Source: an uncultured virus (IMG/VR IMGVR_UViG_3300020447_000004)
Lineage: Duplodnaviria > Heunggongvirae > Uroviricota > Caudoviricetes
IMG/VR virus record: IMGVR_UViG_3300020447_000004
Direction: 5' to 3' (one strand)
DNA: 64,000 nucleotides
Part shown: piece after piece, positions 6,026 to 30,324 of the stretch
Layout of the letters: every line of letters starts with the position of its first letter
Position numbering within the stretch: the stretch's first letter is position 1
Made by a program: the position numbers and the translations under genes
Notes under the pieces: generated by a model
What the model saw: only the letters and a program-made list of their open reading frames with translations
What the model was told of the DNA's origin: nothing
Databases searched by the model: none

Positions 6026-6107
6026 TGCCCAGAGTGGGAATCGAACCCACACTCCCGAAGGAAGCAGATTTTGAATCTGCCGCGTCTGCCAATTCCGCCA
6101 TCCGGGC
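6026..6107 (-). tRNA. tRNA-Leu(CAA)
   Basis: GCAGA-TTCAAAA-TCTGC, long variable arm, A73. Confidence 0.93.
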
Positions 6108-6318: not shown

Positions 6319-6345
6319 AGACGGGCAGAGGACGAAAAAGTCAGA
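6319..6345 (-). promoter_or_regulatory. TCTGAC-N16-CGTC ECF-like phage promoter
   Basis: Motif copy upstream of a small membrane ORF (MYQSNEDV..., start near 6288) and tRNA-Leu. Confidence 0.7.
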
Positions 6346-7197: not shown

Positions 7198-7258
7198 CAG
7201 GTGAGGAGGGAATCGAACCTCCGACCACGATATTTGGAATGTCGCGCTGTCCAATAGT
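7198..7258 (-). pseudogene. tRNA-Trp(CCA) remnant lacking its 5' end
   Basis: Anticodon loop TTCCAAA, TTCGATT T-loop and 3' acceptor strand CTCACCT are present. Stems have mismatches and the TnpB element end replaces the 5' acceptor strand. Confidence 0.65.
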
Positions 7259-7292
7259 CCGTTCGGTAACTCCAAAGGACTACCGCCGCCTC

Positions 7293-8552
7293 TTACGAGG
7301 ACGGCCTCCGGTCTAACCTTCTCCGAAGAGAAGAGCCGGATTCCTGCTTCACCGAGACTGCGTCACCCACACAAGATGGGGTCGGTCTCACATCATCTCC
7401 ACAGGCGTTTAAGGAGTCCGTAGAACTGGCGGCCTCCAGTATGTTAACAGCAGCGTTCAAGTCTGCGTTAACATGATAACCACATGCCAAGCACCGAAAC
7501 TCAGATTGTGACTTTCGATTACCTTTCGCGACATGACCACACACAGAACACTTCTGGCTGGTATAGTGAGGTGCTACAGCCATGACTTCGCAGCCGTAGC
7601 GCTTACCCTTATACTCCAACAAACGGAGAAATGTCCCGAATGCAGCATCCAACACGACCCGGTTGAGACCTTTCTTACGAGAGCCTCCAGAACGAGTCAT
7701 GTTTCGTACCTTCAAGTCTTCCACCACTATCCGACCGTGGCTCTTGGCCAGATGTGTGGTAGCCTTATGAAGGGCATCCTTGCGAGTGTTACTAACCCGA
7801 ACGTGAGCCCGTGCAAGATTTTTCCGAGCTTTGGTTCGGTTCTCAGAACCCTTTTTCTTTTTCGCTAACTCCCTCTGTAACCGCTTGACCTTATGCTGGT
7901 ACTTAGACAGAGCCTTTGGATTCTCGATCACGGTTCCATCGGACAGCGTAGCCAGCTGCGCGACTCCCAGATCCAGACCTACAGAGGGTCCTTTTGGAGA
8001 GGCTTCGGGCGTTTCTGGGCCGACCACAGATACAAACCACCTTCCGGCATGTTCGGTCACTGACACTTGAGGGTGCTTACCCCAGGGTAAGTAACCATAC
8101 TCACCGGGTTGGAGCTTGACTCTACCAATCCGAGGTAGCTGGATCTTCCGATGATCTGATTTTATTTGACCGGTTAGGCGAAATCCTCCGATACCACGGC
8201 TGCGGCTTTTGAAGCGAGGATATCTCGAACGACCTGACAGGAAGTTTTTGAACGCTTTGTCTAAGTCTCGAAGCGCTTCCTGTGGAGCTGCCTTTGAGGC
8301 AGCGTACATCCACGGCACGCCACCCTCTAACGGGTCAGTCTTCTTTAGACGTACCAACACACGATGTAGACTAATCGCGTTGGGCCAGTCCTTCCACTTC
8401 TTCGGCTTGCCCTCGGATACCCACTGATCGTAGGCTTCTCGATGTTGCTGCAAACCCCAGTTATAGGCCCACCGAGCATTACCTGCGTGCTGCATGAGCA
8501 TCCGCCGCTGGCGCAGCGTTGGCCGGATCTCGGCTCGGTAGGATAGCCTCAC
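7293..8552 (-). CDS. tnpB: RNA-guided endonuclease TnpB (InsQ family)
   Basis: N-terminal HTH (GNARWAYNWGL), RuvC-I GLDLG, RuvC-II VEDL, CxxC..CxxC zinc ribbon, RuvC-III NADLNAAVNI; all three catalytic residues present. Confidence 0.95.
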   Translation of the reverse strand: MRLSYRAEIRPTLRQRRMLMQHAGNARWAYNWGLQQHREAYDQWVSEGKPKKWKDWPNAISLHRVLVRLKKTDPLEGGVPWMYAASKAAPQEALRDLDKAFKNFLSGRSRYPRFKSRSRGIGGFRLTGQIKSDHRKIQLPRIGRVKLQPGEYGYLPWGKHPQVSVTEHAGRWFVSVVGPETPEASPKGPSVGLDLGVAQLATLSDGTVIENPKALSKYQHKVKRLQRELAKKKKGSENRTKARKNLARAHVRVSNTRKDALHKATTHLAKSHGRIVVEDLKVRNMTRSGGSRKKGLNRVVLDAAFGTFLRLLEYKGKRYGCEVMAVAPHYTSQKCSVCGHVAKGNRKSQSEFRCLACGYHVNADLNAAVNILEAASSTDSLNACGDDVRPTPSCVGDAVSVKQESGSSLRRRLDRRPSS

Positions 8553-8701
8553 TGAGGGCTTCCCTCAGTGGAGGAGGTCATCAGCTCTACGAGAGCTGAC
8601 CGAATGACCTGAGCCATTGAGCATCGGCGGCGTGCCGCCTCTTCCCTCAACCATTGGATGATGTCCGGGTCGAGATAGACACTGGTACTGACTTTATTCA
8701 T
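8549..8701 (-). CDS. ribbon-helix-helix (CopG-like) protein, 50 aa
   Basis: Manual translation MNKVSTSVYLDPDIIQWLREEAARRRCSMAQVIRSALVELM...; AGGAG RBS; GTGA overlap with tnpB start. Confidence 0.8.
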   Translation of the reverse strand: MNKVSTSVYLDPDIIQWLREEAARRRCSMAQVIRSALVELMTSSTEGSPQ

Positions 8702-8753
8702 GTGTAGCACTCCTATGCTACCTTAGCAAGGTATAAGCGGATTATGACGGAAG

Positions 8754-9524
8754 CTATCTGTAATTTGCGTGGATTTGGTGACTTATGTAAGGGCGCATAG
8801 CATTCCTACTCAACCTACCTTGTAGGAGCCGACACAGTCCATGCCAAAACCTACCCAGCTCTAACTGCCGAATGTCTTTTTGGAAGTAGATGGTGCGGTA
8901 AACAGACCCATCGGGCCAATATTCAATAACAGCGGGGCCTTCGGCCCGATGACAATTCCCGTTATGATAGTACTCCTCAGCCCAAACTGTTCCGTCGGGG
9001 TAATAAATGGTGAAAGCAGGGCCCCCTTCCCGGTGCAGATAACCGCATCGGTAGTATGACTCATGCCAGACCGAACCGTCTTCTCGATACACAACACGAG
9101 CAGGCCCCTCTACTCTGCCGCGACCTCCTACTGAGTAGTATTCCTCACTCTTCACAGACCCGTCAGGATGGTAGTAGATGAGTGCAGGACCTCCCTTTCG
9201 ATATCGAAACCCGTTATGATAGTACTTCTCAAGCCAAACCTTCCCGTCGTGGCGTTCAATGACAGCGGGACCCTCCTTTCTATGCAACACATCATTGAGG
9301 TAGTAGTACTCACTGGAGACATTCCCGTCAGGTAGGTATTCGATGTAAGCAGGGTCGGAGGCCCTGTGCTTCAAACCGTTTTGGTAGTATGTCTCATACC
9401 ACACAGACCCATCACGGCGATACTTAACTTCTGCGGGACTGTCCTCACGGTGTTTTGGGTCCCCTTCCCCGTAAGAGGCTTCCGAAACAAGTAGCCCCTC
9501 AACATGAGTCGATTTCATAGTCAT
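8754..9524 (-). CDS. HRxDGPA-repeat (MORN-variant/YwqK-like) protein
   Basis: About 7 repeats of YYxNGxxHRxxGPAxIxYxxDG. Confidence 0.8.
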   Translation of the reverse strand: MTMKSTHVEGLLVSEASYGEGDPKHREDSPAEVKYRRDGSVWYETYYQNGLKHRASDPAYIEYLPDGNVSSEYYYLNDVLHRKEGPAVIERHDGKVWLEKYYHNGFRYRKGGPALIYYHPDGSVKSEEYYSVGGRGRVEGPARVVYREDGSVWHESYYRCGYLHREGGPAFTIYYPDGTVWAEEYYHNGNCHRAEGPAVIEYWPDGSVYRTIYFQKDIRQLELGRFWHGLCRLLQGRLSRNAMRPYISHQIHANYR

Positions 9525-9551
9525 GTAACCTCCTACATGAATAGTTTGCAG

Positions 9552-9932
9552 TCAGAGAAATGCTATCTCAGGCAATGATTGGGTCGCGCATCTCCAAGGT
9601 CTGAACACAAACCCTTGGAGGCTATACCAAGTCTCCTGATACTGTTGCCCATCTATGTAACAGTAGTCACGTAAACGTGACCCATTTTCACGAAACTCGA
9701 TCCCAGCGGGACCTTCTTCTCTGTGTAGCTTTCCTTCTATGTAATACATCTCTGCGGCAACGATACCGTTTGGATGGTACCCGACATAGGCAGGACCATC
9801 CACTCTATGTCTTTGTCCGTGACAAAAATAAGACACACTGAACACGCTCCCGTCATCTCTATATCCTATAAGGGCAGGGCCTTGGTCGGAATGTAGCTGT
9901 CCACATTTATCTACCCACTTTTCATGATCCAT
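9552..9932 (-). CDS. HRxDGPA-repeat protein
   Basis: Three HSDQGPA/HRVDGPA/HREEGPA repeats. Confidence 0.78.
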   Translation of the reverse strand: MDHEKWVDKCGQLHSDQGPALIGYRDDGSVFSVSYFCHGQRHRVDGPAYVGYHPNGIVAAEMYYIEGKLHREEGPAGIEFRENGSRLRDYCYIDGQQYQETWYSLQGFVFRPWRCATQSLPEIAFL

Positions 9933-10044
9933 GAAAGCCTTCCTATTTATAGAGGGTCACATATCATTTGGCTTAAGGCGAGTATCATGCCACAGCTTCT
10001 GCCTCCATTCAAGAATGGAGGCAGAGTCTTTTGCGCAGAAGTAC

Positions 10045-10818
10045 CTACTGTGTAAAAGACAGCACCTTGCGGATGTACTTGAGGTCCTTCTTGGAAGCGC
10101 TACGCACCTTCCGGATGACATACCCGGACAGGTGAGGGCACCGATCGATACCTTTGGGCAGCTGAGCCTCCTTGAAGTTGTACTCGTAGATCCTGTAGCT
10201 GTAAGACCCGGCAGTGACCAAAGAGGACGACACGCAAACCTGCACATCCTGAGTCACCTTGAACCACAACCCGTCAGACTTCCGAAGCACGTAGAACTCG
10301 TTAGGGGATTTCTTGACGGGAATGGAAGTGATCTCGGGAGTGTAACTCTTCCGCTTCCGCTTACGGCTGTCCCGAGACAGCACACCCGTATCGGGATGCA
10401 CGTAGAACCAGTAGCCCGTGTAGGTCCCGTCTTCCTGGATCTCCGGGTGCTCGTCCACCACCCACTTCAAGTGGAGGCGGAGGTGTTCACCCATGACCGA
10501 ACGCATGTCGGTGTGAGCAGAGATTTCCGAGTAGACCGCATCCCACTGCTGACCCAACCGCTTCTCCAGGAAGCGGTAGATCGGGTTCAGACGGTCCCCA
10601 AAGTAGTTCCGCTCGTGACGGAGCCGGGCCTTCGGACGCATCGTCTTCCGGGGAGAGTTGTCCCAGGAATCCAACACGTCAGGGTAGCCATCCTCATCCT
10701 CTGCCATCAGGTGCGGCACAAGGTGAGTGTTCTGGCGGCGGTAAAACTTGATGTCCTCGTTCTTGCGGCGGTACACCCGCCCCGTGTCCACGATCACGTT
10801 CTGCATATCCGAACGCAT
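10045..10818 (-). CDS. hypothetical protein
   Basis: 257-aa basic ORF with AGGAG RBS. Confidence 0.7.
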   Translation of the reverse strand: MRSDMQNVIVDTGRVYRRKNEDIKFYRRQNTHLVPHLMAEDEDGYPDVLDSWDNSPRKTMRPKARLRHERNYFGDRLNPIYRFLEKRLGQQWDAVYSEISAHTDMRSVMGEHLRLHLKWVVDEHPEIQEDGTYTGYWFYVHPDTGVLSRDSRKRKRKSYTPEITSIPVKKSPNEFYVLRKSDGLWFKVTQDVQVCVSSSLVTAGSYSYRIYEYNFKEAQLPKGIDRCPHLSGYVIRKVRSASKKDLKYIRKVLSFTQ

Positions 10819-10905
10819 GATAGTCTCCTGCGAAAGTATGCCTGTGAATTCAGGCTATGATACTATTTCGCATGGGTGCCTCCAGTTTTTCGGGGTTCAG
10901 GTTAG

Positions 10906-10932
10906 GGACGTTTCTCACGTCCAAAAGTCAGA
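10906..10932 (-). promoter_or_regulatory. TCTGAC-N16-CGTC ECF-like phage promoter
   Basis: Motif copy (CGTCC variant) upstream of a GGAGG RBS. Confidence 0.7.
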
Positions 10933-10947
10933 GTCTCTTTCAGAAAG

Positions 10948-11037
10948 CTGAGACGGAGGGATTCGAACCCTCGGATACTGTTGACCAGTATCAACTGATT
11001 AGCAATCAGCCGCCTTAGACCGCTCGGCCACGTCTCA
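10948..11037 (-). tRNA. tRNA-Ser(GCU)
   Basis: GCTGA-TTGCTAA-TCAGT, long variable arm, G73. Confidence 0.93.
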
Positions 11038-11721
11038 TCAGGTAGCAAACCCACCATGGACACCTGTACAGATGAAATCCGTATCTCCGATGTTCCACCG
11101 ACCCGTAATGTGGTGGTGCCCAAAGTACCACCGCTTAGGGAGGTGCTCAGACAGCTTGACCACATTTTCCAGGTTCTTGGGGGTAGGGGAAGCCTTACGC
11201 GCAATCTTCTTTAGAGGCACCGACAGAGGTGCCTCGTGAGTGACCACGACTTCGGGACCGTGCTCCTCCAACGCAGCCATGAACCCCGTGAAATCTCCGT
11301 AGGTCGGTGTCTCTTCGGGCCACCAATCAAGTCCTGGAGTCCGCCGATGCCGATCAATACTCTCGGCACCCCCGAAGAAGAGGTGACGCACACCACCAAT
11401 CTCAATCACAGAGTTTCGCTCTGCAAAAAAGCATCCAGGGGCGATCTCATTGGTGTAGCCCGAAACAAGTCCTTGTAGAGGGACTGCGGGCCTCTGACGC
11501 CACAGAGGCCAGTTGTCGTGGTTTCCTCCACAGGTAATCCATGTCGGACCGTAGATGTCACGATTCTTGAACCACTCCACCACGTCACAATCAGGCACAA
11601 AGCCGACCCCAAAGTCTCCGACTTGGACGATCGTCGTGATGCCCATCTGTCGGGCCATGGTGTCCAGAGCCTTGAAATGCTTCAACCGACCGTGAAGATC
11701 GCCTGCGTAGATGATAGACAT
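11038..11721 (-). CDS. calcineurin-like metallophosphoesterase
   Basis: GDLHG, VGDFG, GNHD, THEAP, FGHHH motifs. Confidence 0.9.
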   Translation of the reverse strand: MSIIYAGDLHGRLKHFKALDTMARQMGITTIVQVGDFGVGFVPDCDVVEWFKNRDIYGPTWITCGGNHDNWPLWRQRPAVPLQGLVSGYTNEIAPGCFFAERNSVIEIGGVRHLFFGGAESIDRHRRTPGLDWWPEETPTYGDFTGFMAALEEHGPEVVVTHEAPLSVPLKKIARKASPTPKNLENVVKLSEHLPKRWYFGHHHITGRWNIGDTDFICTGVHGGFAT

Positions 11722-11723
11722 CG

Positions 11724-11927
11724 TTACTCCTCAGGTAGACGGACATCCATGTACCGATCCAGTACAATCAAATCGAAATTCTCCATAGAGACCGCCAGGA
11801 CTTTATGGGCTTTTACGCCTTCTGCAAGAGTAACCAAACTCTTGACACCTACTTCCTGAATACGCATGAAAACTTCACCTTCCCAAAGGAATCGAGTACC
11901 AAAGGGTAGGGTTCCAAGCTCTTGCAT
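11724..11927 (-). CDS. hypothetical protein
   Basis: GGAG RBS, downstream of promoter motif. Confidence 0.6.
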   Translation of the reverse strand: MQELGTLPFGTRFLWEGEVFMRIQEVGVKSLVTLAEGVKAHKVLAVSMENFDLIVLDRYMDVRLPEE

Positions 11928-11959
11928 GACAGACTCCGTTATTTGAGGGTTCGGGAAGT

Positions 11960-11986
11960 AGACGGACCCGGAAGCAAAAAGTCAGA
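11960..11986 (-). promoter_or_regulatory. TCTGAC-N16-CGTC ECF-like phage promoter
   Basis: Motif copy upstream of ATG 11927. Confidence 0.75.
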
Positions 11987-12001
11987 GTCTTTTTCAAAAA
12001 G

Positions 12002-12086
12002 AGGAGACGGCGGGATTCGAACCCGCGAGGGCTTTCACCCTACCTGATTTCCAGTCAGGTTCCTTCGACCTCTCGGACACGTCTCC
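12002..12086 (-). tRNA. tRNA-Ser(GGA)
   Basis: CCTGA-CTGGAAA-TCAGG, long variable arm. Confidence 0.93.
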
Positions 12087-12088
12087 AA

Positions 12089-12161
12089 TAGGAGGTGCCG
12101 GGCTCGAACCGGCGACCTGATCGGTGTAAACGACCCGCTCTCCCAACTGAGCTAACCTCCT
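12089..12161 (-). tRNA. tRNA-Val(UAC)
   Basis: GGTCG-TTTACAC-CGATC, full cloverleaf. Confidence 0.93.
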
Positions 12162-12321
12162 ATGGGGTGCCGTATGGTGCTGGGTTTAGCGGTACGACAA
12201 CTCGCCTTTTTCTTAAATAGTACTTCGGAGGTCTGTGAGCACCTACACAGACCTCAAACCCGAAGAGTGCACAATCCCCGTGCACTAAAGGGCCCACTTT
12301 ATATGGGGATGCAGTAAAGAG

Positions 12322-12394
12322 AGCGGGAGATGGGACTCGAACCCACAGCGTCCAGCTTGGAAGGCTGGCATTCTACCAATTGAATTACTCCCGC
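12322..12394 (-). tRNA. tRNA-Gly(UCC)
   Basis: GCGGGAG acceptor, CCAGC-CTTCCAA-GCTGG, U73. Confidence 0.95.
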
Positions 12395-12602
12395 AAATGC
12401 CATATGAAGTGGAGACGGTATGGCGCTCGTCTAATAATATCCCGATCCCCTGTCAGACCACAACTTTCCAACGGTGGGGACTGTCTGTACTGCTAACCCG
12501 AGCACAGGAGGGCCTCCACTCAGATGGGAGATAGGTACAGAGTTTAAATCTGTACCTACTCAGTCGGTCCATAACGAACCGCTCTACGAGACGAAAAAAG
12601 GA

Positions 12603-12704
12603 AGTCCGGGACGGGACTCGAACCCGCATCACGAATCACTGCTAACCAACTTGGCGCCTTCCGACTACCAGTGACCAATGGTTTTGCCATTAAACTACCC
12701 AGGC
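12603..12704 (-). ncRNA. tRNA-like RNA with enlarged anticodon arm
   Basis: Normal D arm (GTTT-AATGGCA-AAAC) and T arm (GCGGG-TTCGAGT-CCCGT), but about 50 nt with a TCACTG/CAGTGA stem in place of the anticodon arm. Confidence 0.65.
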
Positions 12705-12711
12705 TATGAAG

Positions 12712-12784
12712 TGGAAGATACGGGACTCAAACCAGTGACCCCCTGCCTGCAAAGCAGGTGCTCTCTCAACTGAGCTAATCCCTC
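12712..12784 (-). tRNA. tRNA-Ala(UGC), degenerate (possible pseudogene)
   Basis: CCTGC-TTTGCAG-GCAGG and G3:U70 are present; T-loop is TTTGAGT and the acceptor and T stems have mismatches. Confidence 0.7.
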
Positions 12785-12803
12785 TAATCAATCTGAAAAG
12801 AAG

Positions 12804-12885
12804 TGGGAGCAGGTGGATTCGAACCACCGTAGGCATAGCCAACTGGTTTACAGCCAGTCCCCTTTAACCACTCGGGCATACTCCC
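12804..12885 (-). tRNA. tRNA-Tyr(GUA)
   Basis: ACTGG-CTGTAAA-CCAGT, long variable arm, A73. Confidence 0.95.
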
Positions 12886-13013
12886 AGAAAATAGACAATC
12901 GCACCACAAACCACTATCAGAATCTGAACCCCGACCATACCAATGAGGACCCCCTCTCGATAGCCGGGATTTTCCAACTCTTCATCTGTCCCTAACCAGT
13001 TATTCCACATGCG

Positions 13014-13421
13014 TCAACGCCTTTCGGGGATCTCAACCATCCCCAGAGATTGTAGATATGCACGGAGCTTTGCAGGGGACATCCGAAACTCAAAGTGAGA
13101 GGGCATGTCACACGCACCCTTTAGATCGGGTGCCACATGCCGAAAGAAGTCACTGAAACAGTGTCGCTTGGCGTAGTATGCTGCTGGAGTAATCCAGGCA
13201 TATGCGCACTCGGGATAGACAGTGCGAGGAGGGCTCCACTCTTCGTCTTCAGGAGAGTAAACAGACATCTGCGTCTGGGTCATGCTTTCGTCATCGCCCA
13301 GTAGTGTGTCAATCATGACTCTCCGATACTCAGAAGGGATGCGACGCCACCCATGACCCGTTTCAATATCCCAGTCCAGCTGGAACACAAATCGACCCTC
13401 AAAGTCAGGTGGAGTATCCAT
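13014..13421 (-). CDS. hypothetical protein
   Basis: ATG 13421 with GGAGG RBS; the longer ORF call overlaps tRNA-Phe. Confidence 0.65.
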   Translation of the reverse strand: MDTPPDFEGRFVFQLDWDIETGHGWRRIPSEYRRVMIDTLLGDDESMTQTQMSVYSPEDEEWSPPRTVYPECAYAWITPAAYYAKRHCFSDFFRHVAPDLKGACDMPSHFEFRMSPAKLRAYLQSLGMVEIPERR

Positions 13422-13441
13422 GTGTACCTCCAATGAAAAAG

Positions 13442-13515
13442 TGGTCCGGGCAGGAATCGAACCTGCGACTTCACGGTGCTTCAAACCGTAGCTCTTCCAA
13501 CTGAGCTACCGGACC
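13442..13515 (-). tRNA. tRNA-Phe(GAA)
   Basis: ACGGT-TTGAAGC-ACCGT anticodon arm, full cloverleaf. Confidence 0.85.
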
Positions 13516-13593
13516 AAAAGTCATGCGTTGATTAAGTGGAAACGTGACAACAACGAAGAAACTGCACCACATCAACACATGACTCAGAAGGGG

Positions 13594-13917
13594 TTACTCT
13601 GCGAGTACCAGCTTGTAGCGCCGACCGTCGATCTCTCGGGTCTGACCCGTCAGGTCAGGTGCCTTGGTAGCTTCGTCGTACTCTGCCACCGAATCGTACA
13701 CCTGAGATTCTTCAACACGACGGACACAGAACTGGGCATATTTGTAGCGTGTGGGCGGGCCGCCCATCCCCGCATACCGGCGGTAGCGCTCAGACATCAC
13801 GAAACGAACTGCGCTATCTTCGTCATCAAACTTAATACCCGTGGACAAGGTACGACCCTTTCCCTCCATACCATCGCTGTTGTACATCACTTCGTAGTAG
13901 GCAGGTAGAGTCTTCAT
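13594..13917 (-). CDS. hypothetical protein
   Basis: AAGGAGG RBS. Confidence 0.7.
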   Translation of the reverse strand: MKTLPAYYEVMYNSDGMEGKGRTLSTGIKFDDEDSAVRFVMSERYRRYAGMGGPPTRYKYAQFCVRRVEESQVYDSVAEYDEATKAPDLTGQTREIDGRRYKLVLAE

Positions 13918-14098
13918 GATAGCCTCCTTTGTAGGGGAATGGTAAGAGAGTAGTACCTATGCGCTGCTACTGTAACTCCAATGCAGTCGAGCTGCAAGTA
14001 ACTACAGAGGGATTTCTACGTGCGCACTACCTCCGCAGAGGTCCGGGGCTCTCCGAGTCAGGGTACCAAACCTAACTCAGTCGTCCGAGGGTTGCTCT

Positions 14099-14587
14099 CT
14101 AACAGAGAGAATCTTGCTGGAGGATCGAAATCGTCACACGAGGACTGAACGATTCCAGCCGGCAGATAGGAGATCCTACCGGTAGAGCAATACGAATCGA
14201 CCCCACATTAGCGGTGTCCATCACCTCCTCAAAAGCTTCCTTCCAGGAGGCCCAAACACAGGGAGCAGAGAGATTCATCGCCTGATACTCCCGCAGCACT
14301 TGGTCTCGTTCATCCAGAGACAGGGCCCGGCCGATCCGGCGTTCGGGAGAGAGGTGAGGAATGCGACGATAGAAACGGTCCATCTCTCCGAGCATCCGCA
14401 GCACCGCAGGAGGCTGGAATGCCCTAGCCCGCACCGGCTTAATACCTGCAAGGTCTCGATTGACCTGACTCAGCTCCACAGGGTCCATCAGGAATCCGAT
14501 GAGGGTGGAGAGGACCAGAGCCAAAGAGTCTTCGGGATTTTCAGGACGAACCCCCACCGAAGGGGTCAGAACGAGAGTACGAGGCAT
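14099..14587 (-). CDS. hypothetical protein
   Basis: GGAG RBS, 162 aa. Confidence 0.6.
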   Translation of the reverse strand: MPRTLVLTPSVGVRPENPEDSLALVLSTLIGFLMDPVELSQVNRDLAGIKPVRARAFQPPAVLRMLGEMDRFYRRIPHLSPERRIGRALSLDERDQVLREYQAMNLSAPCVWASWKEAFEEVMDTANVGSIRIALPVGSPICRLESFSPRVTISILQQDSLC

Positions 14588-15067
14588 GAGTATTTCTCCA
14601 TATGTGTAGGGAAAGGAACAGGAGTGCCCAGCTACCCCGAACGCTTACGCGCCCGATATCAGGGGTGGTACGCACGGAGGCTATACCGAACCTGAAGGGT
14701 GGTTACCCACCTGTAAGATCTCGCAGCTCTCGCTACGGGGCTTATCCCTTTAGGCTATTATGTCCTAAAGGTCCACCCGGGTTCCTGTTATACGTCAGGG
14801 AGTGAAGGAGATAACTCCCTGACAATGTTGCTTCATGTTCGCAGTCTACTGTCACAGCCAAAATGACAGAGCACGGGGGCGAACGCAACGATCTCAGTAG
14901 ATGTCTTCATCTTCATTCGGGAAGAACACTTCCTGAATGAAGTGGAGGAGGTCCACTGCTACGTAGGCAAAGACCACAGCCACCGCAAGGATGATGAGAG
15001 TCTGGGGCATGTTGTCTACCGCCATGTTGAGGATTTTCATTTGAGGCTCCGTGTGTGGGCATATCCT

Positions 15068-15094
15068 TGACGAATCCGCCCACCAAAAGTCAGA
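15068..15094 (-). promoter_or_regulatory. TCTGAC-N16-CGTC ECF-like phage promoter
   Basis: Motif copy upstream of GGAG/ATG 15040 (small membrane ORF). Confidence 0.7.
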
Positions 15095-15392
15095 GATTAC
15101 TTCTCGATTTCCAGAGAAATCCGCGCCACTTCATCCCCACTCTTCCGAGACAGGACATAGTCCATGTCCGTAATCCGACGACAAACAAAAGCCAGAAGCG
15201 GGTTTTCGTGGTACGGAATACTTCCATAGGAGTCAACAGCCAGAATCAGCTGCTTCCCGAAGGGGGTAGTAGTCATGCGGTCCGAAGGGTTGCAGTACAT
15301 CGAGTGCTGACTAACTCCCGAAGCAGTCATGACATTCACGCGGTAGTTTCGATAGGTGTTCACCGTGACCTCCATGTTCGAGTATGTTCCAG

Positions 15393-15419
15393 AGACGGAT
15401 ACCGCTCCGGAAAGTCAGA
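15393..15419 (-). promoter_or_regulatory. TCTGAC-N16-CGTC ECF-like phage promoter
   Basis: Motif copy upstream of ORF 15097-15375. Confidence 0.7.
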
Positions 15420-17911: not shown

Positions 17912-18548
17912 CCTCTATCTACATTGTGCCGTAGAGTTAGAAGAACCCACCAATACCCGCAAAGGCTACTGTATTCAAGTAGCTTCTACTGGAGTTGAGA
18001 TAGGTGTTGGTGTTCATTTCAGTCCTCTTATCCTAAGACAGTATCCCTGTCAAGTACAAAAGGACTATAGAGTGTAAAAAGATCTGAGTATGACTATTAG
18101 CGGGTCTCTCAAAGAGACCGTCGGCTTTGAGTGTCTGAGTGTTTGTATTCGTATCTGTTAGAGTACCAGATGGACTCGTAGAAGGATTCATCTCTATAGG
18201 AGTCGTAGTCTTCGGAGGAGTAATCTCTGTAGTTGTATCCTAAGCAGTTGTGTTTGAAAGATTGGATCAGTGAGTTTCACTACAGTAGAGTGTATGTCTA
18301 ATTGATCTTAGAGTATACTCTACCTTAGAGTAGTTTACTTCCGGGTTCGTATCGAGCCTAACTGGACCTCAGAGACTTGTCCAGCAGGAGTTAGCTCAAT
18401 CTCACTGACAGTGTTCCCATTATTTTGCAGCTCGCGGAACCTTAGACGAGACATGCTTGAACTCTCAAGCGCCACGGTCACTAAGCTGGGTCTCTCCAGC
18501 TATGTTGTGACCCCTCAGAGATATGTACGGAATTTTCTGCCTTTCGTG

Positions 18549-19283: not shown

Positions 19284-20177
19284 TCACATCACCAACTCGT
19301 TTTCAACCTCGCTCAGGTCAAACACCATCTGTGCTACACGGGATTGGAGCGCAGCTGACAGGAGTCGGGCACCTTCTGAGCGGCCCCCGATTCCCAGAGC
19401 CTTGAGCGCGCGTTCCATTTCACGGCGGAAGTTCTTTCGGTAAGAGTAACCGAAGTCCTTGTATTGAATAGAACGGCCCATGAGCTGCTCCACTTCACGG
19501 TGAAGCTCTTTCATGTTTCGTGCACGCCCATCTCCAGCATAGGAGGTATTACCCGTGTCTACGACCGCCTTGAAGATATGCGGAGCAGGTCCCCACCCCT
19601 GCTTCTTAAGCTGGCGCATGATAGCAGGGTAGAGGTCCTTAGCCATTGCAGCTGTTTCGGGGTTGTGGAGCTGTCCCGCGTCGGTACGCTCCAAGTCGAC
19701 TCCGGGAGCATCCTCCGAACCGTCCGAGAAGCTCTCAAAATGGTCCCCTCGATACTTAAGCTTCCGGTGTAGGTCACGTACAAGGTTTTCAGCCAACTTG
19801 AAGAGAATACCCTCCAGATTGCGAATACCCTTGGTGTCCTGCTGCTTCTTAACGTAAGCCACCCACTGCTTGGTCATGTTCTTGGATGACCTGTCCAGGA
19901 AGTTGATGGCTACCTCCTGGAATAGGTCATCGAACTCAGGTGATGTTGGGTTTCGGACACGACGCTTGACCGCAGAATAGATGATCTTGTAGAAGTCGAG
20001 AGGGCGGTCTACCTGAATCCCCGCACGAACAAACTCCTGATTTAGGACCTTGTTCAGCTCCCGCTTGAAAAAGCTGGTTGACGCCGTATGGATGATACTG
20101 GCGACCACCAAAGCGGTGCGAGTTGAGGTAGGGAGGGTACGTGCTAAGCGCACTCGAAGGGCTGCAATGCGGTTCAT
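19284..20177 (-). CDS. divergent ECF-type (group 4-like) RNA polymerase sigma factor
   Basis: Sigma-2-like segments YKIIYSAVKRRV..FDDLFQEVAINFL and LEGILFKLAENLVRDLHRK; linker NPETAAMAKDLYPAIMRQL; region 4 poorly conserved. ATG 20177 has a GGAG RBS. Confidence 0.62.
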   Translation of the reverse strand: MNRIAALRVRLARTLPTSTRTALVVASIIHTASTSFFKRELNKVLNQEFVRAGIQVDRPLDFYKIIYSAVKRRVRNPTSPEFDDLFQEVAINFLDRSSKNMTKQWVAYVKKQQDTKGIRNLEGILFKLAENLVRDLHRKLKYRGDHFESFSDGSEDAPGVDLERTDAGQLHNPETAAMAKDLYPAIMRQLKKQGWGPAPHIFKAVVDTGNTSYAGDGRARNMKELHREVEQLMGRSIQYKDFGYSYRKNFRREMERALKALGIGGRSEGARLLSAALQSRVAQMVFDLSEVENELVM

Positions 20178-20269
20178 TTTAGGTCTCCACAGAGATTTCA
20201 TACCTGTGCGGAGTACAAAAGGACCATAGAGCCCCTTGACCATGGCTCTATGGTCCTTTGTTCTATCAA

Positions 20270-21526
20270 CTATGCCCGAGCGGATACCTTTGCCATCTCC
20301 AGCACAGGCTCCCCTTCACCGTTCACACACGCCTCCGTGATGGTGACACGCGCGACATCGCCCCGTCGCGAAGGAAGATCAAACTTGAGATCCTGGAGGA
20401 GGGGGTCTACGATAGTGCGTAGACCCCGTGCACCGCGACCCTGCTTGATTGCCTTTTGTGCAATGGCTCGAATCGCATTGGGTTCAAAGACCAGCTGAGT
20501 ATCACATGCAATCTCAAACTCACGCACTTTCTGAGCCAGGAGCGCATTCTTGGGCTCGGTCAGCACTCGCACCAGCTGGTCTTCGTCCAGCTCTCGGAGA
20601 GTGACTACCGCCGGAATACGGCCCAGAAACTCCGGAATCAGGCCGAACTTCTTGAGGTCTTCGGTCTCGACCATAGAGAAGAGGCTGGAGTCATCCTTGA
20701 TCTTTGATTCAATCTTGGACGCGCTACCGAACCCGACAGAAGCCTTCTTGTTCACTCGCTTCTCGATGATCTTGGGGAGAGCCGGGAAGGCCCCGCCCAC
20801 GATGAAAAGGATGTTGGAAGTGTCGATCTCCACATCGGTGGCTACCTCGCCCGAAGGAGAGTACATACGACGTTTGCCCGGCAGAGGCACTCGCACCTTG
20901 GCACCCTCCAGAAGCTTGAGCAGGGCCTGCTGCACACCGCGCCCTCCAACATCGACGCGCACATTTTCGGTAGCGACCGCAGAGGCCAGCTTATCGATCT
21001 CGTCAATAAATACGATGGATCGCTCGATCTTTGCAGGGTCCCCGCCGCATTCTGCGACCAGGGGGGTTAGAATGTCCTCCACATCATCCCCGACATAGCC
21101 AGCCTGGGTAAGCCGGTTTGCATCGGCAATCGTAAAGGGCACATTCAGCATACGGGCGATCGTCCGGGCCAGAAGCGTCTTACCGCAGCCAGTAGGGCCC
21201 AGCATCAGGACGTTGCTCTTTTCAAGCTCGATTTCACCCGGGGCAGGCGGGTTGTTGATACGGATGAAGTGGTCATAGACCGCAACCGCGAGCGCCTTCT
21301 TGGCATTGTCCTGACCAATGACGTACTCGTCCAGGAAATCCTTGATTTCCTGAGGCACCTTGAGAGGCACCTCAGGCACGTTTTCCTTAGACTGGACCTT
21401 GGAGATGGAAGAGAGTCCCAGGGTCATACAGGACCCACAGATCCGAAACAGGCCGTCCGGAGTTTGGATCTGTGGACCGGTCTGGGACCGGGGCTTCTGG
21501 CAGAAGGAACACTTAGACTCGGTCAT
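20270..21526 (-). CDS. clpX: ATP-dependent Clp protease ATPase subunit ClpX
   Basis: C4 zinc finger CSFC, YVIGQ, KSNVLMLGPTGCGKT, AGYVGDDVE, FIDEIDK, GVQQALLK, VGF loop, GARGLR. Confidence 0.96.
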   Translation of the reverse strand: MTESKCSFCQKPRSQTGPQIQTPDGLFRICGSCMTLGLSSISKVQSKENVPEVPLKVPQEIKDFLDEYVIGQDNAKKALAVAVYDHFIRINNPPAPGEIELEKSNVLMLGPTGCGKTLLARTIARMLNVPFTIADANRLTQAGYVGDDVEDILTPLVAECGGDPAKIERSIVFIDEIDKLASAVATENVRVDVGGRGVQQALLKLLEGAKVRVPLPGKRRMYSPSGEVATDVEIDTSNILFIVGGAFPALPKIIEKRVNKKASVGFGSASKIESKIKDDSSLFSMVETEDLKKFGLIPEFLGRIPAVVTLRELDEDQLVRVLTEPKNALLAQKVREFEIACDTQLVFEPNAIRAIAQKAIKQGRGARGLRTIVDPLLQDLKFDLPSRRGDVARVTITEACVNGEGEPVLEMAKVSARA

Positions 21527-27930: not shown

Positions 27931-27974
27931 TGTGTTATCCTTTTGTAGTATCATTAGACCATCGGAGGCTACAA

Positions 27975-28223
27975 ATGGACCTGACACGTATTGCAGCGGG
28001 CCTGAGTAAGGAGGCCGCATCATTTCGGAATGAAGACATTGCTCGAATGCAGCAGACTTCGCAAGACCTCTATAAGAGGGTACAGGGACTGGCAGCCCAA
28101 ATCGCTCAGGTAGAGCATTCCGCAGATCGCGCGATGTCCGCCGATTTGAAGAAAGCCTTCAAGAGTCTACAGTCCGCGCTTCGATCGATAGATACTGCTA
28201 CGCTACACCTTGAGAAATGGTAA
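27975..28223 (+). CDS. small protein with N-terminal LTRIAA motif
   Basis: GGAGG RBS; MDLTRIAAGLSKEAASF... Confidence 0.7.
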   Translation: MDLTRIAAGLSKEAASFRNEDIARMQQTSQDLYKRVQGLAAQIAQVEHSADRAMSADLKKAFKSLQSALRSIDTATLHLEKW

Positions 28224-29884: not shown

Positions 29885-29911
29885 AGACGCAAGAGGGCAC
29901 AAAAAGTCAGA
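29885..29911 (-). promoter_or_regulatory. TCTGAC-N16-CGTC ECF-like phage promoter
   Basis: Motif copy upstream of AAGGAG/ATG 29855. Confidence 0.75.
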
Positions 29912-29935
29912 ATCTTTGTGCCCTTTCAATGCCGA

Positions 29936-30268
29936 TTACTTCCAGTACACGGCACCATGGGTACGTAGGGACATCTCAAGGTTCGGCTGGCGGATGTTAC
30001 CCCGGATACCCTTGGCAGGCTTCTTCCATGAGGCCGCCTTGAGAATGTCGCCCGTCTCACGGTTGACGAAGTGGTGCACACTGCGGCCACTGCCATCCTT
30101 ATCGGTCTTGACGATCTTGATGTACTTCCGGCCGGGCTGGGCCGAGATGACGTATCCGAACGTCTTCAGGAAGCCTTCACCATGAAAGGCCACGAGACCA
30201 CGGTCCACGATGTCCTGGACCTTGACAAGGTACTCAGCAAGCTCGGCGTCGGTAACAGGGCGGTTCAT
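29936..30268 (-). CDS. conserved phage hypothetical protein
   Basis: GRKYIKIV..SVHHFV..TGDILKAASWKKPAKGIRGNI, a pattern I recognise from phage proteins of unknown function. Confidence 0.75.
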   Translation of the reverse strand: MNRPVTDAELAEYLVKVQDIVDRGLVAFHGEGFLKTFGYVISAQPGRKYIKIVKTDKDGSGRSVHHFVNRETGDILKAASWKKPAKGIRGNIRQPNLEMSLRTHGAVYWK

Positions 30269-30297
30269 TTGATTCTCCTCTGTGGGTTACAGGTAGC

Positions 30298-30324
30298 AGA
30301 CGCACGAGAGGTCGAAAAGTCAGA
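30298..30324 (-). promoter_or_regulatory. TCTGAC-N16-CGTC ECF-like phage promoter
   Basis: Motif copy upstream of ATG 30268. Confidence 0.75.

What the first reader, a model, noticed from the sequence alone, without database searches (positions are those of the whole stretch)
19284..20223. Candidate virion-packaged ECF-like sigma factor as cognate of the 28 promoters
Seen: a 297-aa ORF with sigma-2-like segments (FDDLFQEVAINFL; LFKLAENLVRDLHRK), an ECF-like linker (NPETAAMAKDL) and a divergent region 4. It has an extra N-terminus starting MNRIAA. It is not preceded by the TCTGAC promoter, but by TCCTTTTGTA, the motif also found before the RIAA-protein at 27975. No anti-sigma gene is adjacent; clpX lies directly upstream. 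Inference: the sigma is made late, targeted to the capsid by the (R/K)IAA leader, injected with the DNA, and redirects host core RNAP to the TCTGAC-N16-CGTC promoters. This would be an early-transcription strategy distinct from virion RNA polymerases or host sigma70 promoters.
Basis: partly seen in the sequence, partly recalled or inferred. Interest (0 to 1): 0.88.

Follow-up and report, generated by a model that had tools for sequence, protein, structure and literature searches.

The report
Divergent phage sigma factor beside clpX
An uncultured marine giant phage encodes a very divergent two-domain sigma factor that probably steers the host RNA polymerase to the phage's own promoters, a known kind of phage switch; nothing supports the idea that it travels inside the virus particle.

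Summary
Window 19284-20177 (-) encodes a 297-aa protein starting MNRIAA, directly downstream of clpX. The window has 28 TCTGAC-N16-CGTC sites (0.27 expected), and TCCTTTTGTA lies 36 nt upstream of the start codon.

The protein alone matches no Pfam, PHROG or PDB sequence. An exhaustive profile search found a small family of 15 cluster representatives. Of 14 members aligned, 11 hit the NCBIfam sigma70-ECF model (best E 2.8e-8, spanning regions 2 and 4; all below the curated cut-off). Seven hit Pfam Sigma70_r2. AlphaFold models give sigma-2 and sigma-4 structural neighbours, including phiEco32 gp36, at middling Z. It is therefore a divergent ECF-like sigma, and the only sigma-like ORF in the window.

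Its link to the 28 promoters is plausible, because their geometry is ECF-type, but it is untested. Two independent relatives, with clpX-sigma synteny conserved, show no such promoters within 10 kb. They do conserve TCCWTTTGTA in front of the sigma gene.

Late synthesis, an "RIAA" capsid leader and injection have no support. RIAA is four residues shared with a paralogous family of small proteins, and the fourth residue varies among the sigma relatives.

Verdict: a new member of a known kind, of moderate interest.

The parts
19284..20177 (-). Sigma-like gene, 297 aa plus stop (P0001).
   Evidence: ORF and translation. Family of 15 representatives. TIGR02937 sigma70-ECF hits in 11 of 14 members, with P0001 at E 0.013 over residues 62-143.
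20052..20177 (-). N-terminal extension, residues 1-42. It forms two helices, and M-x-R-I-A-x-L is conserved in the family.
   Evidence: Alignment. AF2 helices 2-12 and 17-51. It lies outside the sigma70-ECF profile match, which begins at residue 62.
19740..20051 (-). Sigma-2-like domain, residues 43-146. It holds DDLFQEVA (region 2.2-like) and NLVRDLHRK (region 2.4-like), with about 17 extra residues between them relative to the profile.
   Evidence: Pfam Sigma70_r2 in 7 of 14 members. VIA rank 1 has Z 6.1 over model residues 42-151, and 18 of the 50 listed entries are sigma entries. hhalign places E. coli RpoE residues 67-86 on residues 118-137.
19662..19739 (-). Acidic, disordered sigma-2/sigma-4 linker, residues 147-172. 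SDGSED..GVDLER is conserved.
   Evidence: pLDDT below 50 for residues 147-172. Conservation.
19392..19661 (-). Sigma-4-like helix-turn-helix domain, residues 173-262, divergent in this member.
   Evidence: Relatives align to the sigma70-ECF profile up to position 154 of 165. P0012 hits Sigma70_r4_2 at E 0.0095. The domain model has 11 of 50 VIA rows that are sigma-4 entries, Z 3.7-4.8.
19287..19391 (-). C-terminal extension, residues 263-297, two helices.
   Evidence: It lies beyond the sigma-4 matches.
20214..20223 (-). TCCTTTTGTA, here called the 'class B' motif, 36 nt upstream of the sigma start.
   Evidence: The same core, TCCWTTTGTA, lies 42-47 nt upstream of the sigma start in both independent relatives L003 and L005. 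Those two share CATAATCCATTTGTA, 15 of 15 bases.
20215..20261 (-). 18-bp hairpin between clpX and the sigma gene. It resembles an intrinsic terminator and is followed by UUUUGUA.
   Evidence: MFE -41.6 kcal/mol for 20178-20275, z -5.16, 0 of 200 shuffles fold as well.
20185..20213 (-). Second hairpin, whose 3' arm contains the sigma gene's GGAG Shine-Dalgarno sequence.
20270..21526 (-). Phage clpX, upstream neighbour on the same strand. The clpX-sigma pairing is conserved in relatives.
   Evidence: Pfam. Synteny in L003/L006 and L005.
645..15419 (-). Ten TCTGAC-N16-CGTC ('class A') sites on the minus strand.
29886..30324 (-). Two class A sites on the minus strand.
35942..58852 (+). Sixteen class A sites on the plus strand.
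27938..27979 (+). Second class B copy (27938-27947), with an inverted partner TACAAATGGA (27970-27979) that overlaps the ATG at 27975.
18055..18064 (-). Third class B copy. It shares 20 of 21 bases (CTCTATrGTCCTTTTGTACT) with the copy at the sigma gene.

Best explanation
The gene encodes a genuine but very divergent sigma-70-family factor of the two-domain, ECF-like type. It has a sigma-2 domain, a short acidic linker and a sigma-4 domain, plus family-specific N- and C-terminal helical extensions and an insertion in sigma-2. It belongs to a small phage-only family that always sits just downstream of a phage clpX.

Inferred mechanism: the protein is made during infection and binds the host core RNA polymerase through the beta-prime clamp helices (sigma-2) and the beta flap (sigma-4). 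It then redirects the polymerase to phage promoters. The most likely regulon is the 28 TCTGAC-N16-CGTC promoter-leader cassettes that drive the tRNA, auxiliary and small-ORF genes of this region. On that reading those genes are a middle-type class, not an immediate-early one, as in phiEco32 gp36 or SPO1 gp28.

What is shown: family membership at the remote-homology level, the fold, the synteny, and the reality and ECF geometry of the promoters.

What is inferred: core binding, which promoters it reads, and the timing.

My odds: it is a functional sigma, about 0.8. Given that, it reads class A, about 0.55.
For: - Sequence homology. TIGR02937 sigma70-ECF matches 11 of 14 family members. The best are P0012 (E 2.8e-8, residues 71-236 against profile 14-154 of 165) and P0005 (E 3.2e-7). 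P0001 itself scores E 0.013 over residues 62-143. Pfam Sigma70_r2 matches 7 of 14 members, best E 0.0035, and Sigma70_r4_2 matches 1 of 14.
- Whole-protein fold. The AF2 model has pLDDT 77. In the VIA wide search, 18 of the 50 listed entries are sigma factors or RNAP-sigma complexes aligned to residues about 43-150. Rank 1 has Z 6.1, rmsd 3.4 and 75 aligned residues. Mtb SigH aligns over 43-259 and phiEco32 gp36 (9m7y_F) over 43-264 at Z 4.9.
- C-terminal domain fold. The domain model has pLDDT 79.7. Eleven of its 50 VIA rows are sigma-4 entries, with SigL at Z 4.8 and gp36 at Z 4.7.
- Predicted docking. The sigma-2 domain was modelled against E. coli beta-prime residues 230-345. The tool's verdict was weak support: score 0.60, best of 3 controls 0.00. 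That mark was reached by 116 of 157 solved complexes and 2 of 215 mismatched pairs, but a score of 0.60 or less was seen in only 18 of those 157 solved complexes and in both mismatches that passed. The runs agree in at least 82% of contacts and the partner's pLDDT is at least 70. The target is a stand-in host protein, and similar complexes have been solved, so the pass may reflect likeness only.
- Sole candidate in the window. It is the only ORF in the window with any sigma signal (86 ORFs scanned in Pfam, 69 in NCBIfam).
- Promoters. There are 28 sites against 0.27 expected. Of the 28 copies of TCTGACTTT, 27 carry CGTC after the fixed spacer. A hexamer ending in AC, then 16 nt, then CGTC is the ECF bipartite layout as I recall it. 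A fixed distance to the Shine-Dalgarno sequence and start codon holds at 26 of 28 sites.
- Distribution. The family is conserved with clpX in phages of GC 0.39, 0.53 and 0.60. No member was found among the 12 stretches of cellular genome records that matched a family pattern.
Against: - All sequence hits fall below the curated cut-offs (best 33.5 bits against 42.9).
- P0001 alone hits nothing in Pfam, PHROGs or PDB sequences. The family profile found no sigma among PDB sequences.
- Foldseek found no match at E <= 0.001 for either model.
- All VIA Z scores are 3.7-6.1, a range the tool says is common for helical proteins. The top 5 rows for the C-terminal domain are not sigma factors.
- hhalign against E. 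coli RpoE gave a probability of only 2.5%.
- Regulon link. A weight matrix built from the 28 promoters finds nothing above the shuffle maxima in relatives L003 and L005, within 10 kb either side of their sigma genes. The exact pattern is absent there too.
- The sigma gene has no class A promoter of its own, so it lacks the usual ECF autoregulation.
- The element that is conserved with the sigma gene across relatives is the other motif, TCCWTTTGTA.
- Only 64 kb of a probably much larger genome is visible. Another sigma or an RNA polymerase could be encoded elsewhere.
Confidence: 0.55

Rival explanations
1. The protein is a sigma, but its cognate element is the conserved TCCWTTTGTA motif ('class B'). 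That would be a -10-type promoter in front of its own gene (autoregulation) and a few other genes. The 28 class A promoters would then be read by something else: a host ECF sigma switched on by infection stress, or a second phage sigma outside the window.
For: - TCCWTTTGTA sits 36-47 nt upstream of the sigma start in all three independent lineages. L003 and L005 are identical over 15 nt despite GC contents of 0.60 and 0.39. A conserved sigma should have a conserved promoter.
- ECF sigmas typically autoregulate (recalled).
- phiEco32 gp36 reads a single block, AATGTA, at about -11.5 (PMC12276001, passages read). That block resembles the ...TTTGTA end of this motif.
- Class A was not found near the relatives' sigma genes.
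Against: - There are only 3-4 copies in 64 kb and 1-2 per relative locus.
- No conserved -35 partner is visible.
- In all 5 instances the motif can pair with the start-codon or Shine-Dalgarno region of the downstream gene, z -0.97 to -5.69. It may therefore act as RNA, as a translational operator, rather than as a promoter.
- In the window the motif is part of the clpX terminator-like hairpin.
- A two-domain sigma fits a bipartite promoter better.
Confidence: 0.2
2. The sigma is made late and loaded into the capsid by its N-terminal (R/K)IAA leader. It is injected with the DNA and turns host core RNAP onto the 28 promoters as the immediate-early step.
For: - The sigma gene lacks a class A promoter and lacks a sigma-70-consensus promoter. 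The scan of 16.8-30.4 kb found 8 sites against 9.8 expected, none placed upstream of clpX or the sigma gene. So something other than itself or a standard host promoter may drive it.
- It has a conserved N-terminal extension of about 40-60 aa with no assigned role.
- Four ORFs in the window carry [RK]IAA within their first 15 residues.
- Class A drives genes of the early or auxiliary type.
- As leads only: earlier unchecked notes of this scan describe late-made, leader-tagged divergent sigmas in other jumbo phages (e1-6037911, e1-5690575, e1-5402934).
Against: - Nothing shows late timing. No virion, head-protease or late-promoter landmark is in the window, and TATAAATA occurs once, elsewhere.
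- Three of the four RIAA ORFs are paralogues of one another that share a longer motif, L.[RK]IAA.[LI][SA]K...W.R.L..AQ..Y. The sigma lacks that motif.
- Among sigma relatives the fourth residue varies (A, S, T, C or R), so 'RIAA' is not the conserved unit.
- The first Glu is at residue 40, so there is no T4-type (L/I)xE cut site near the N-terminus (motif recalled).
- In the passages I read of two jumbo-phage overviews (PMC7824862; PMC13282480), phage sigmas are described as recruiting host RNAP. Only virion RNA polymerases are described as injected.
Confidence: 0.06
3. The protein is not a working sigma. It would be a helical DNA-binding or regulatory protein that keeps sigma-like folds, for example a transcription factor, a decoy that sequesters an anti-sigma or core RNAP, or a ClpX-linked substrate or adaptor. 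The 28 promoters would be read by host or other phage factors.
For: - All homology is sub-threshold and the structural Z scores are middling.
- Region 4 of this particular member is divergent. P0001 matches the ECF profile only over residues 62-143.
- The strict pairing with clpX in three lineages hints at a functional tie to proteolysis rather than to promoters.
Against: - The matches recur in 11 of 14 members, are co-linear and span regions 2 and 4.
- The motifs DD.FQEV and N.V[KR]D..RK are conserved at the positions of regions 2.2 and 2.4.
- The tool returned weak support for docking on the beta-prime clamp helices: score 0.60, best control 0.00, with the counts given under the best explanation.
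- The genome clearly uses a non-housekeeping, ECF-type promoter set.
Confidence: 0.12

Closest known systems
Coliphage phiEco32 gp36, a phage-encoded distant sigma homologue for middle and late genes
   Same: - It is a phage protein with an N-terminal sigma-2-like domain and a C-terminal sigma-4-like domain, and no sigma-3.
- It binds host core RNAP and reads phage-specific promoters, while early genes use the host sigma (PMC12276001, passages read).
- The gp36 chain 9m7y_F is a structural neighbour of both models here: Z 4.9 with 142 residues aligned over 43-264, and Z 4.7 for the C-terminal domain.
   Different: - There is no detectable sequence similarity. tblastn of P0001 against 50,697 phage records found nothing.
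- gp36 promoters are a single AATGTA block. The candidate regulon here is bipartite, TCTGAC-N16-CGTC.
- This protein is about 90 aa longer, with N- and C-terminal extensions.
- No gp79-like co-factor was identified.
- The gene neighbourhood (clpX) differs.
Cellular ECF (group 4) sigma factors, e.g. E. coli RpoE, B. subtilis SigW, M. tuberculosis SigH/SigL
   Same: - Two-domain architecture with a short linker.
- Region 2.2-like and 2.4-like motifs.
- Hits to TIGR02937, TIGR02985 and other ECF models.
- Structural neighbours.
- The genome's 28 promoters have the ECF layout, an ...AC hexamer, 16 nt, then CGTC (the layout itself is recalled).
   Different: - Scores fall below every curated cut-off.
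- About 17 extra residues lie within sigma-2 (82 residues against 65 profile positions).
- There is a leader of about 40-60 aa and a tail of about 35 aa.
- No adjacent anti-sigma was recognised.
- Its own gene has no cognate-type promoter.
- It is phage-borne.
Sigma factors of RNAP-less jumbo phages (T4 gp55-type minimal sigma and RpoD-like sigma; Iyer et al. 2021, PMC7824862)
   Same: It is a large phage with many tRNAs and a ClpX that appears to rely on host RNAP plus its own sigma. The overview notes that group 2 jumbo phages all encode sigma factors and that some encode ClpX (passages read). An entry for the T4 gp45-dependent late-transcription activation complex, 7d7d_F, is a weak structural neighbour at Z 4.9. 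I did not check that chain's identity.
   Different: This protein is neither the minimal single-domain type nor RpoD-like. It is an ECF-like two-domain form. No gp33 or gp55 homologue and no T4-type late promoter is visible in the window.
T4 internal proteins and Alt (capsid-targeting sequence, cleaved by the head protease, injected)
   Same: Only the idea. The protein has a short N-terminal segment that is not part of the functional domains.
   Different: No (L/I)xE site lies near the N-terminus, and the first Glu is residue 40 (motif recalled). No late promoter is present. No virion data exist. The leader is shared with other proteins over only 4 residues.

Membership tests
Sigma-70 family, ECF-like (NCBIfam TIGR02937 / Pfam PF04542 + PF08281) | Score at or above the curated model cut-off | tested here: not met
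   The best family member scores 33.5 bits against a cut-off of 42.9. P0001 scores 15.2 bits. Pfam Sigma70_r2 scores are at most 17.5 bits against 24.
Sigma-70 family, ECF-like | Remote but consistent homology to region 2 (2.1-2.4) | tested here: met
   TIGR02937 matches 11 of 14 members and Sigma70_r2 matches 7 of 14, always on the same segment. hhalign puts RpoE 67-86 on residues 118-137. In the VIA search, 18 of 50 rows are sigma entries aligned on residues 43-150.
Sigma-70 family, ECF-like | Region 4 helix-turn-helix domain | tested here: inconclusive
   Relatives align to the profile through position 151-154 of 165, and P0012 hits Sigma70_r4_2 at E 0.0095. P0001's own region 4 is seen only by fold: 11 of 50 rows are sigma-4 entries at Z 3.7-4.8, ranked below five non-sigma rows.
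Sigma-70 family, ECF-like | Two domains joined by a short flexible linker, with no region 3 or 1.1 | tested here: met
   In the AF2 model, residues 147-172 have pLDDT below 50 and lie between two helical domains. An unrelated N-terminal helical extension of about 42-60 aa is present.
Sigma-70 family, ECF-like | Binds core RNA polymerase (beta-prime clamp helices) | tested here: inconclusive
   The prediction with E. coli beta-prime 230-345 as a stand-in gave weak support: score 0.60 against a best control of 0.00. That mark was reached by 116 of 157 solved complexes and 2 of 215 mismatches, but a score of 0.60 or less by only 18 of the 157 and by both mismatches. Needs biochemistry.
Sigma-70 family, ECF-like | Cognate bipartite promoter, usually including its own gene (autoregulation) | tested here: not met
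   The genome has 28 ECF-type sites. None precedes this gene; the nearest lie 3.9 kb and 9.7 kb away. Whether the protein reads them was not testable.
Sigma-70 family, ECF-like | Adjacent anti-sigma factor (common, not universal) | tested here: not met
   The neighbours are clpX and an unannotatable 221-aa ORF. Relatives carry a conserved gene of about 120 aa just downstream that is absent here.
phiEco32 gp36-type phage sigma | Sequence similarity to gp36 homologues | tested here: not met
   tblastn of P0001 against the phage collection found no match. The best PHROG hit has E 0.39 to a family of unknown function.
phiEco32 gp36-type phage sigma | Sigma-2-like NTD plus sigma-4-like CTD fold | tested here: inconclusive
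   9m7y_F scores Z 4.9 (142 residues aligned, but rmsd 21 across both domains) and Z 4.7 (78 residues aligned, rmsd 3.4) for the CTD.
Capsid-targeted, injected phage proteins (T4 IPI-III/Alt type) | Short N-terminal targeting peptide ending in a head-protease site, (L/I)xE in T4 (recalled) | tested here: not met
   There is no Glu before residue 40, and residues 38-40 are K-R-E. The N-terminus is predicted to be helical and is conserved as M-x-R-I-A-x-L with a variable fourth residue.
Capsid-targeted, injected phage proteins (T4 IPI-III/Alt type) | Late expression and presence in virions | not testable with these tools
   No RNA run holds the sequence. No cultured relative is known, and no structural genes are in the window.

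The most novel reading that the evidence does not exclude
A clade of marine giant phages packages a dedicated ECF-like sigma factor into the capsid. Its family-specific N-terminal helix would serve as the loading signal, perhaps handled by the always-adjacent phage ClpX. The phage would inject the sigma with the DNA, so that host core RNA polymerase is captured for 28 or more phage promoters before any phage protein is made. This would be an injected specificity subunit instead of an injected polymerase.
Probability: 0.06. Interest if true: 0.85.

Novelty: new member of a known kind. Interest (0 to 1): 0.48.

Why it matters
Phage-encoded sigma factors that re-aim the host polymerase are a known strategy. 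This family, however, is invisible to Pfam and PHROGs, and only 15 of 1.84 billion cluster representatives belong to it. It shows how much transcription machinery in uncultured giant phages goes unannotated.

The window also offers an unusually clean natural data set. It holds 28 near-identical ECF-type promoter-leader cassettes and a single candidate sigma. If the pairing is confirmed, that gives an orthogonal sigma/promoter pair with a ready-made series of natural promoter variants.

The conserved clpX-sigma pairing, together with a conserved element in front of the sigma gene, points to post-transcriptional or proteolytic control of a phage sigma. That control would be worth testing.

Tried and rejected
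**Single-sequence searches.** P0001 alone found nothing useful in Pfam, PHROGs, PDB sequences or the phage collection by tblastn. The ESM Atlas gave 29 of 30 unnamed clusters and one cluster with Sigma70_r2 on 17% of members, which was not informative.

**Whole genome.** None is held for this window. Records behind L003, L005 and L006 are not held either, so the rest of those contigs could not be read.

**Searching for relatives.**
- The search for related loci with A1 in viral contigs returned 90 pattern matches but no relative.
- With A2 and A3 the alignments were not conserved enough to search. I switched to degenerate DNA patterns.
- Viral contigs gave 0 matches for two family patterns and for a promoter-plus-leader pattern.
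- Metagenome contigs gave 10 loci, 4 of which encode a family member. L008 is identical to the window and was dropped as not independent. L003 and L006 are the same phage.
- Genome contigs gave 12 loci and 0 members.

**Co-occurrence of the sigma gene with class A promoters.** The exact pattern is absent from L003, L005 and L006. Weight-matrix hits are all below the shuffle maxima. A single TCTGACT-N16-CGTT site sits 30 nt before an ATG in L003/L006, but that is one site only. This neither supports nor refutes the link, because the window itself has no class A site within 3.9 kb and 9.7 kb of the gene.

**Profile comparison with RpoE.** A2 against E. coli RpoE alone gave a probability of 2.5%. 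The follow-up homologue search returned only sequences at least 86% identical to RpoE, which are useless for a diverse profile.

**Fold and promoter scans.**
- Foldseek against the PDB found no match at E <= 0.001 for either model.
- The sigma-70-type promoter scan around the operon was not above chance.
- The T4 late motif TATAAATA occurs once in the window, elsewhere.

**Sequencing runs.** No RNA holder is listed. The holders are marine metagenome DNA runs from 2 studies, one of which may be the source.

**P0016.** This 2694-aa protein, hit at E 5e-6, is a tandem-repeat protein whose many weak partial matches add up. I rejected it as a relative.

**ORF 18549-19214.** By eye it looked like the genes of about 220 aa downstream of the sigma gene in the relatives. 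BLAST did not support this.

**Literature.** Four searches were run and passages of four papers were read. I saw no report of a virion-packaged sigma factor. This covers only the library held and those terms.
Full report
**1. What is there**

On the minus strand, 19284-20177 encodes a 297-aa protein (P0001) that starts MNRIAA. A GGAG lies 9 nt upstream of the start.

The gene follows a phage clpX (20270-21526, zf-C4_ClpX plus AAA_2). The 92-nt gap between them folds into two hairpins (-41.6 kcal/mol, z -5.16):
- a second hairpin, 20185-20213, whose 3' arm holds the Shine-Dalgarno sequence.

The window looks like part of an uncultured giant phage. It has 14 tRNA genes and a tmRNA with tag ANNTSHYDRVALAA. 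It also carries thyX, several DNA methylases, Thg1-like, RNA-ligase, NUDIX, Hsp20, DprA-like, CinA, macro and SLT domains and a TnpB. Most ORFs have no family at all. No phage record matches at the DNA level. DNA runs that hold the sequence are marine metagenomes.

**2. The promoters are real**

TCTGAC-N16-CGTC occurs 28 times against 0.27 expected. The 9-mer TCTGACTTT occurs 28 times, and 27 of those copies carry CGTC after the fixed spacer.

Of the 28 sites, 26 are followed at 24-36 nt (median 30) by a Shine-Dalgarno sequence, a start codon and an ORF of at least 30 codons. A partly conserved leader...CTGTAcCCActACGGAG, lies in between.

The sites are strand-consistent with the genes. Ten lie on the minus strand at 0.6-15.4 kb, two on the minus strand at 29.9-30.3 kb, and sixteen on the plus strand at 35.9-58.9 kb.

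A hexamer ending in AC, 16 nt, then CGTC is the layout I recall for ECF sigma promoters. A housekeeping-sigma reading would leave the invariant CGTC unexplained and would lack an A at -11. No such site lies between 15.4 and 29.9 kb, the stretch that holds the sigma gene.

**3. Is the protein a sigma factor?**

On its own it is an orphan. Pfam, PHROGs, PDB sequences and 50,697 phage records gave nothing. The word-indexed protein search found one relative.

The exhaustive profile search of 1.84 billion representatives found 16 proteins at E <= 0.001. One of them, P0016, is a repeat protein and is spurious. One is a 66-aa fragment. That leaves a family of about 276-308 aa.

In the 14-member alignment the conserved blocks are:
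- M-x-R-I-A-x-L at the N-terminus;
- [YF]DD.FQ[ED]V...L;
- an invariant Trp105;
- N.V[KR]D..R[KS];
- an acidic D.(S/T)ED..G.DLER linker;
- in most members, a helix-turn-helix-like block, G[IV]TGF...G...LAE.LGVT..TV.Q.Y..KF..D...AL.

Each member was scanned separately:
- 11 of 14 hit NCBIfam TIGR02937 (sigma70-ECF). P0012 scored E 2.8e-8 over residues 71-236 against profile positions 14-154 of 165. P0005 scored 3.2e-7, P0003 2.2e-6, and P0001 itself 0.013 over residues 62-143.
- Further ECF subfamily models also appear.
- 7 of 14 hit Pfam Sigma70_r2, and P0012 hit Sigma70_r4_2.
- All scores are below the curated cut-offs. This is remote homology, not formal membership.

The AF2 model (pLDDT 77) has two helical domains joined by a disordered stretch, residues 147-172. 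Foldseek gave no significant match, although ECF sigma H and L chains had the highest probabilities in its list.

The Foldseek-independent VIA search listed 18 sigma entries among 50 rows, aligned to residues about 43-150. These include:
- rank 1, Z 6.1;
- SigH across both domains;
- SigW, BldN, ShbA, SigI6 and SigR;
- E. coli sigma-E region 2;
- an entry for the T4 gp45-dependent late-transcription complex (7d7d_F; I did not check the chain's identity);
- phiEco32 gp36.

A separate model of residues 170-297 (pLDDT 79.7) gave 11 sigma-4 entries among 50 rows. SigL sigma-4 scored Z 4.8, gp36 4.7, and sigma-28, CnrH and SigD4 also appeared. Five unrelated helical proteins ranked above them, and all Z scores were below 5.4. 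The tool warns that such Z values are common for helical proteins, so the recurrence matters more than any single score.

A predicted complex of the sigma-2 domain with E. coli beta-prime 230-345 gave weak support. The score was 0.60 and the best of three controls 0.00. The mark was reached by 116 of 157 solved complexes and 2 of 215 mismatches. A score of 0.60 or less was seen in only 18 of the 157 solved complexes and in both mismatches. The runs agree in at least 82% of contacts and the partner pLDDT is at least 70. The target is a stand-in host protein, and similar complexes have been solved, so this shows likeness at most.

Taken together, I put the odds that this is a functional sigma at about 0.8. 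Relative to the ECF profile it has about 60 extra residues at the N-terminus, about 17 extra residues inside sigma-2 and a tail of about 35 aa.

**4. Relatives and context**

A degenerate DNA pattern found four metagenome loci that encode members:
- L008 is 100% identical to window 9.9-20.5 kb and is not independent.
- L003 and L006 are one phage (GC 0.60, 34% protein identity).
- L005 is another phage (GC 0.39, 27% identity).

In both independent relatives the gene lies immediately downstream of clpX. The module macro - SLT - CinA - two small genes - clpX - sigma is conserved. Synteny ends at the sigma gene.

No member was found in viral contigs or in 185,579 species genomes by pattern.

**5. 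Does it read the 28 promoters?**

For:
- It is the only sigma-like ORF among the ORFs scanned (86 in Pfam, 69 in NCBIfam).
- The promoters are of the type that two-domain sigmas read.
- A phage-specific promoter set normally has a phage-specific factor.

Against or open:
- Only 64 kb of the genome is visible.
- The relatives show no class A site within 10 kb either side. The exception is one TCTGACT-N16-CGTT site 30 nt before an ATG at the edge of L003/L006. This is weak evidence, because the window's own nearest sites are 3.9 and 9.7 kb from the gene.
- The gene is not autoregulated by class A.

What is conserved with the gene is the other motif. TCCWTTTGTA lies 36, 47 and 42 nt before the sigma start in the window, L003 and L005. 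L003 and L005 are identical over CATAATCCATTTGTA. The window has two more copies:
- 18055, sharing 20 of 21 bases with the sigma copy;
- 27938, with an inverted partner that overlaps the ATG at 27975.

This element could be the sigma's own promoter. phiEco32 gp36 reads AATGTA (PMC12276001, passages read). Alternatively it could be a promoter or operator for another factor. It could also act as RNA: in all 5 instances the motif pairs with the Shine-Dalgarno or start-codon region downstream, z from -0.97 to -5.69, with 3 of 5 beating all 200 shuffles. I cannot decide between these readings.

My odds, given that the protein is a sigma:
- reads class A, about 0.55;
- reads class B, about 0.2;
- the remainder, other targets.

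**6. The packaging idea**

Four ORFs have [RK]IAA in their first 15 residues. Three of them (27975, 28228 and 62008 minus) are paralogues that share L.[RK]IAA.[LI][SA]K and more. The sigma shares only N/T-R-I-A-A with them.

Within the sigma family the fourth residue is A, S, T, C or R. The conserved unit is therefore an amphipathic M-x-R-I-A-x-L-R helix, not 'RIAA'.

There is no Glu before residue 40, so there is no T4-style protease site (motif recalled). No T4 late promoter is present at the gene, no virion genes are in the window, and there are no RNA data.

In the passages I read of two jumbo-phage overviews, phage sigmas recruit host RNAP and only virion RNA polymerases are injected (PMC7824862; PMC13282480). 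I saw no packaged sigma in four literature searches.

Earlier unchecked notes of this scan propose leader-tagged, late-made sigmas in other giant phages. They are unrelated in sequence and are leads only.

I keep this reading at about 0.06. A more economical idea for the conserved N-terminus and the invariable clpX neighbour is control of sigma stability or activity by the phage ClpX. That is inference only and was not tested.

**7. Verdict**

The sigma identity is well supported at the remote-homology level. The cognate link is plausible but open. Late synthesis and injection are unsupported.

The closest known analogue is phiEco32 gp36, together with SPO1-type phage sigmas, which I recall rather than take from a call. 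This is a new, previously unannotatable family within a known strategy.

Noticed in passing
window 20214-20223(-), 18055-18064(-), 27938-27979(+); L003 10330-10339(-); L005 10336-10345(-): The 10-mer TCCWTTTGTA is conserved upstream of the sigma gene in three phages with GC contents from 0.39 to 0.60. In all 5 instances it can pair with the Shine-Dalgarno or start-codon region of the next gene. It could be a promoter, an operator or a translational hairpin; this is unresolved.
   Followed up: partly
window 15676-16074(-) and 20270-21526(-): The phage carries its own tmRNA (tag ANNTSHYDRVALAA, ending in the ssrA-type LAA) as well as its own ClpX. It also carries 14-15 tRNA genes between 0.9 and 16.2 kb. 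The phage may run its own tagging-and-unfolding pathway.
   Followed up: no
   Followed up: partly
L003 9006-9446(-); L005 9037-9408(-): Both relatives have a conserved gene of about 120 aa immediately downstream of the sigma gene, overlapping its 3' end in L003. It is followed by paralogous genes of about 220 aa. Neither has a homologue in the window. The 120-aa gene is a candidate sigma partner or anti-sigma.
   Followed up: partly
window 7293-8552(-) and 17651-17865: There is a full-length TnpB (OrfB_IS605 plus a Cas12f-like TNB domain). A 216-nt remnant, 82% identical to its 3' end, lies 1.4 kb downstream of the sigma gene. The stretch 16.8-19.28 kb has few convincing ORFs.
   Followed up: partly
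window, downstream of 26 of the 28 class A sites (e.g. 57165-57195): The class A cassettes include a partly conserved leader (CTGTAcCCActACGGAG) with a fixed distance of 24-36 nt to the start codon. The promoter, 5'UTR and ribosome site appear to be copied as one unit.
   Followed up: partly
window 2517-3146(-), 34701-35522(+), 36654-37748(+), 52328-52936(+): A set of tRNA-related enzymes sits beside the tRNA genes: a PP-loop (TilS-like) ATPase, a Thg1-like tRNA-His guanylyltransferase, a T4-type RNA ligase and a match to a PHROG annotated as histidyl-tRNA synthetase.
   Followed up: no
window 23944-24543(-), 23439-23940(-), 22781-23254(-): Macro (ADP-ribose hydrolase-like), SLT lytic transglycosylase and CinA genes form a module with clpX and the sigma gene that is conserved in the two relatives.
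   Followed up: partly
L008 (whole locus) versus window 9893-20500: A 20.5-kb contig in a public metagenome assembly is 100% identical to this part of the window, so it is the same phage assembled twice.
   Followed up: yes
window 14545-14570(-): One of the 28 pattern matches, TCTGACCCCTTCGGTGGGGGTTCGTC, lacks the TTT, contains a GC hairpin and has no start codon downstream. It is probably not a promoter.
   Followed up: partly
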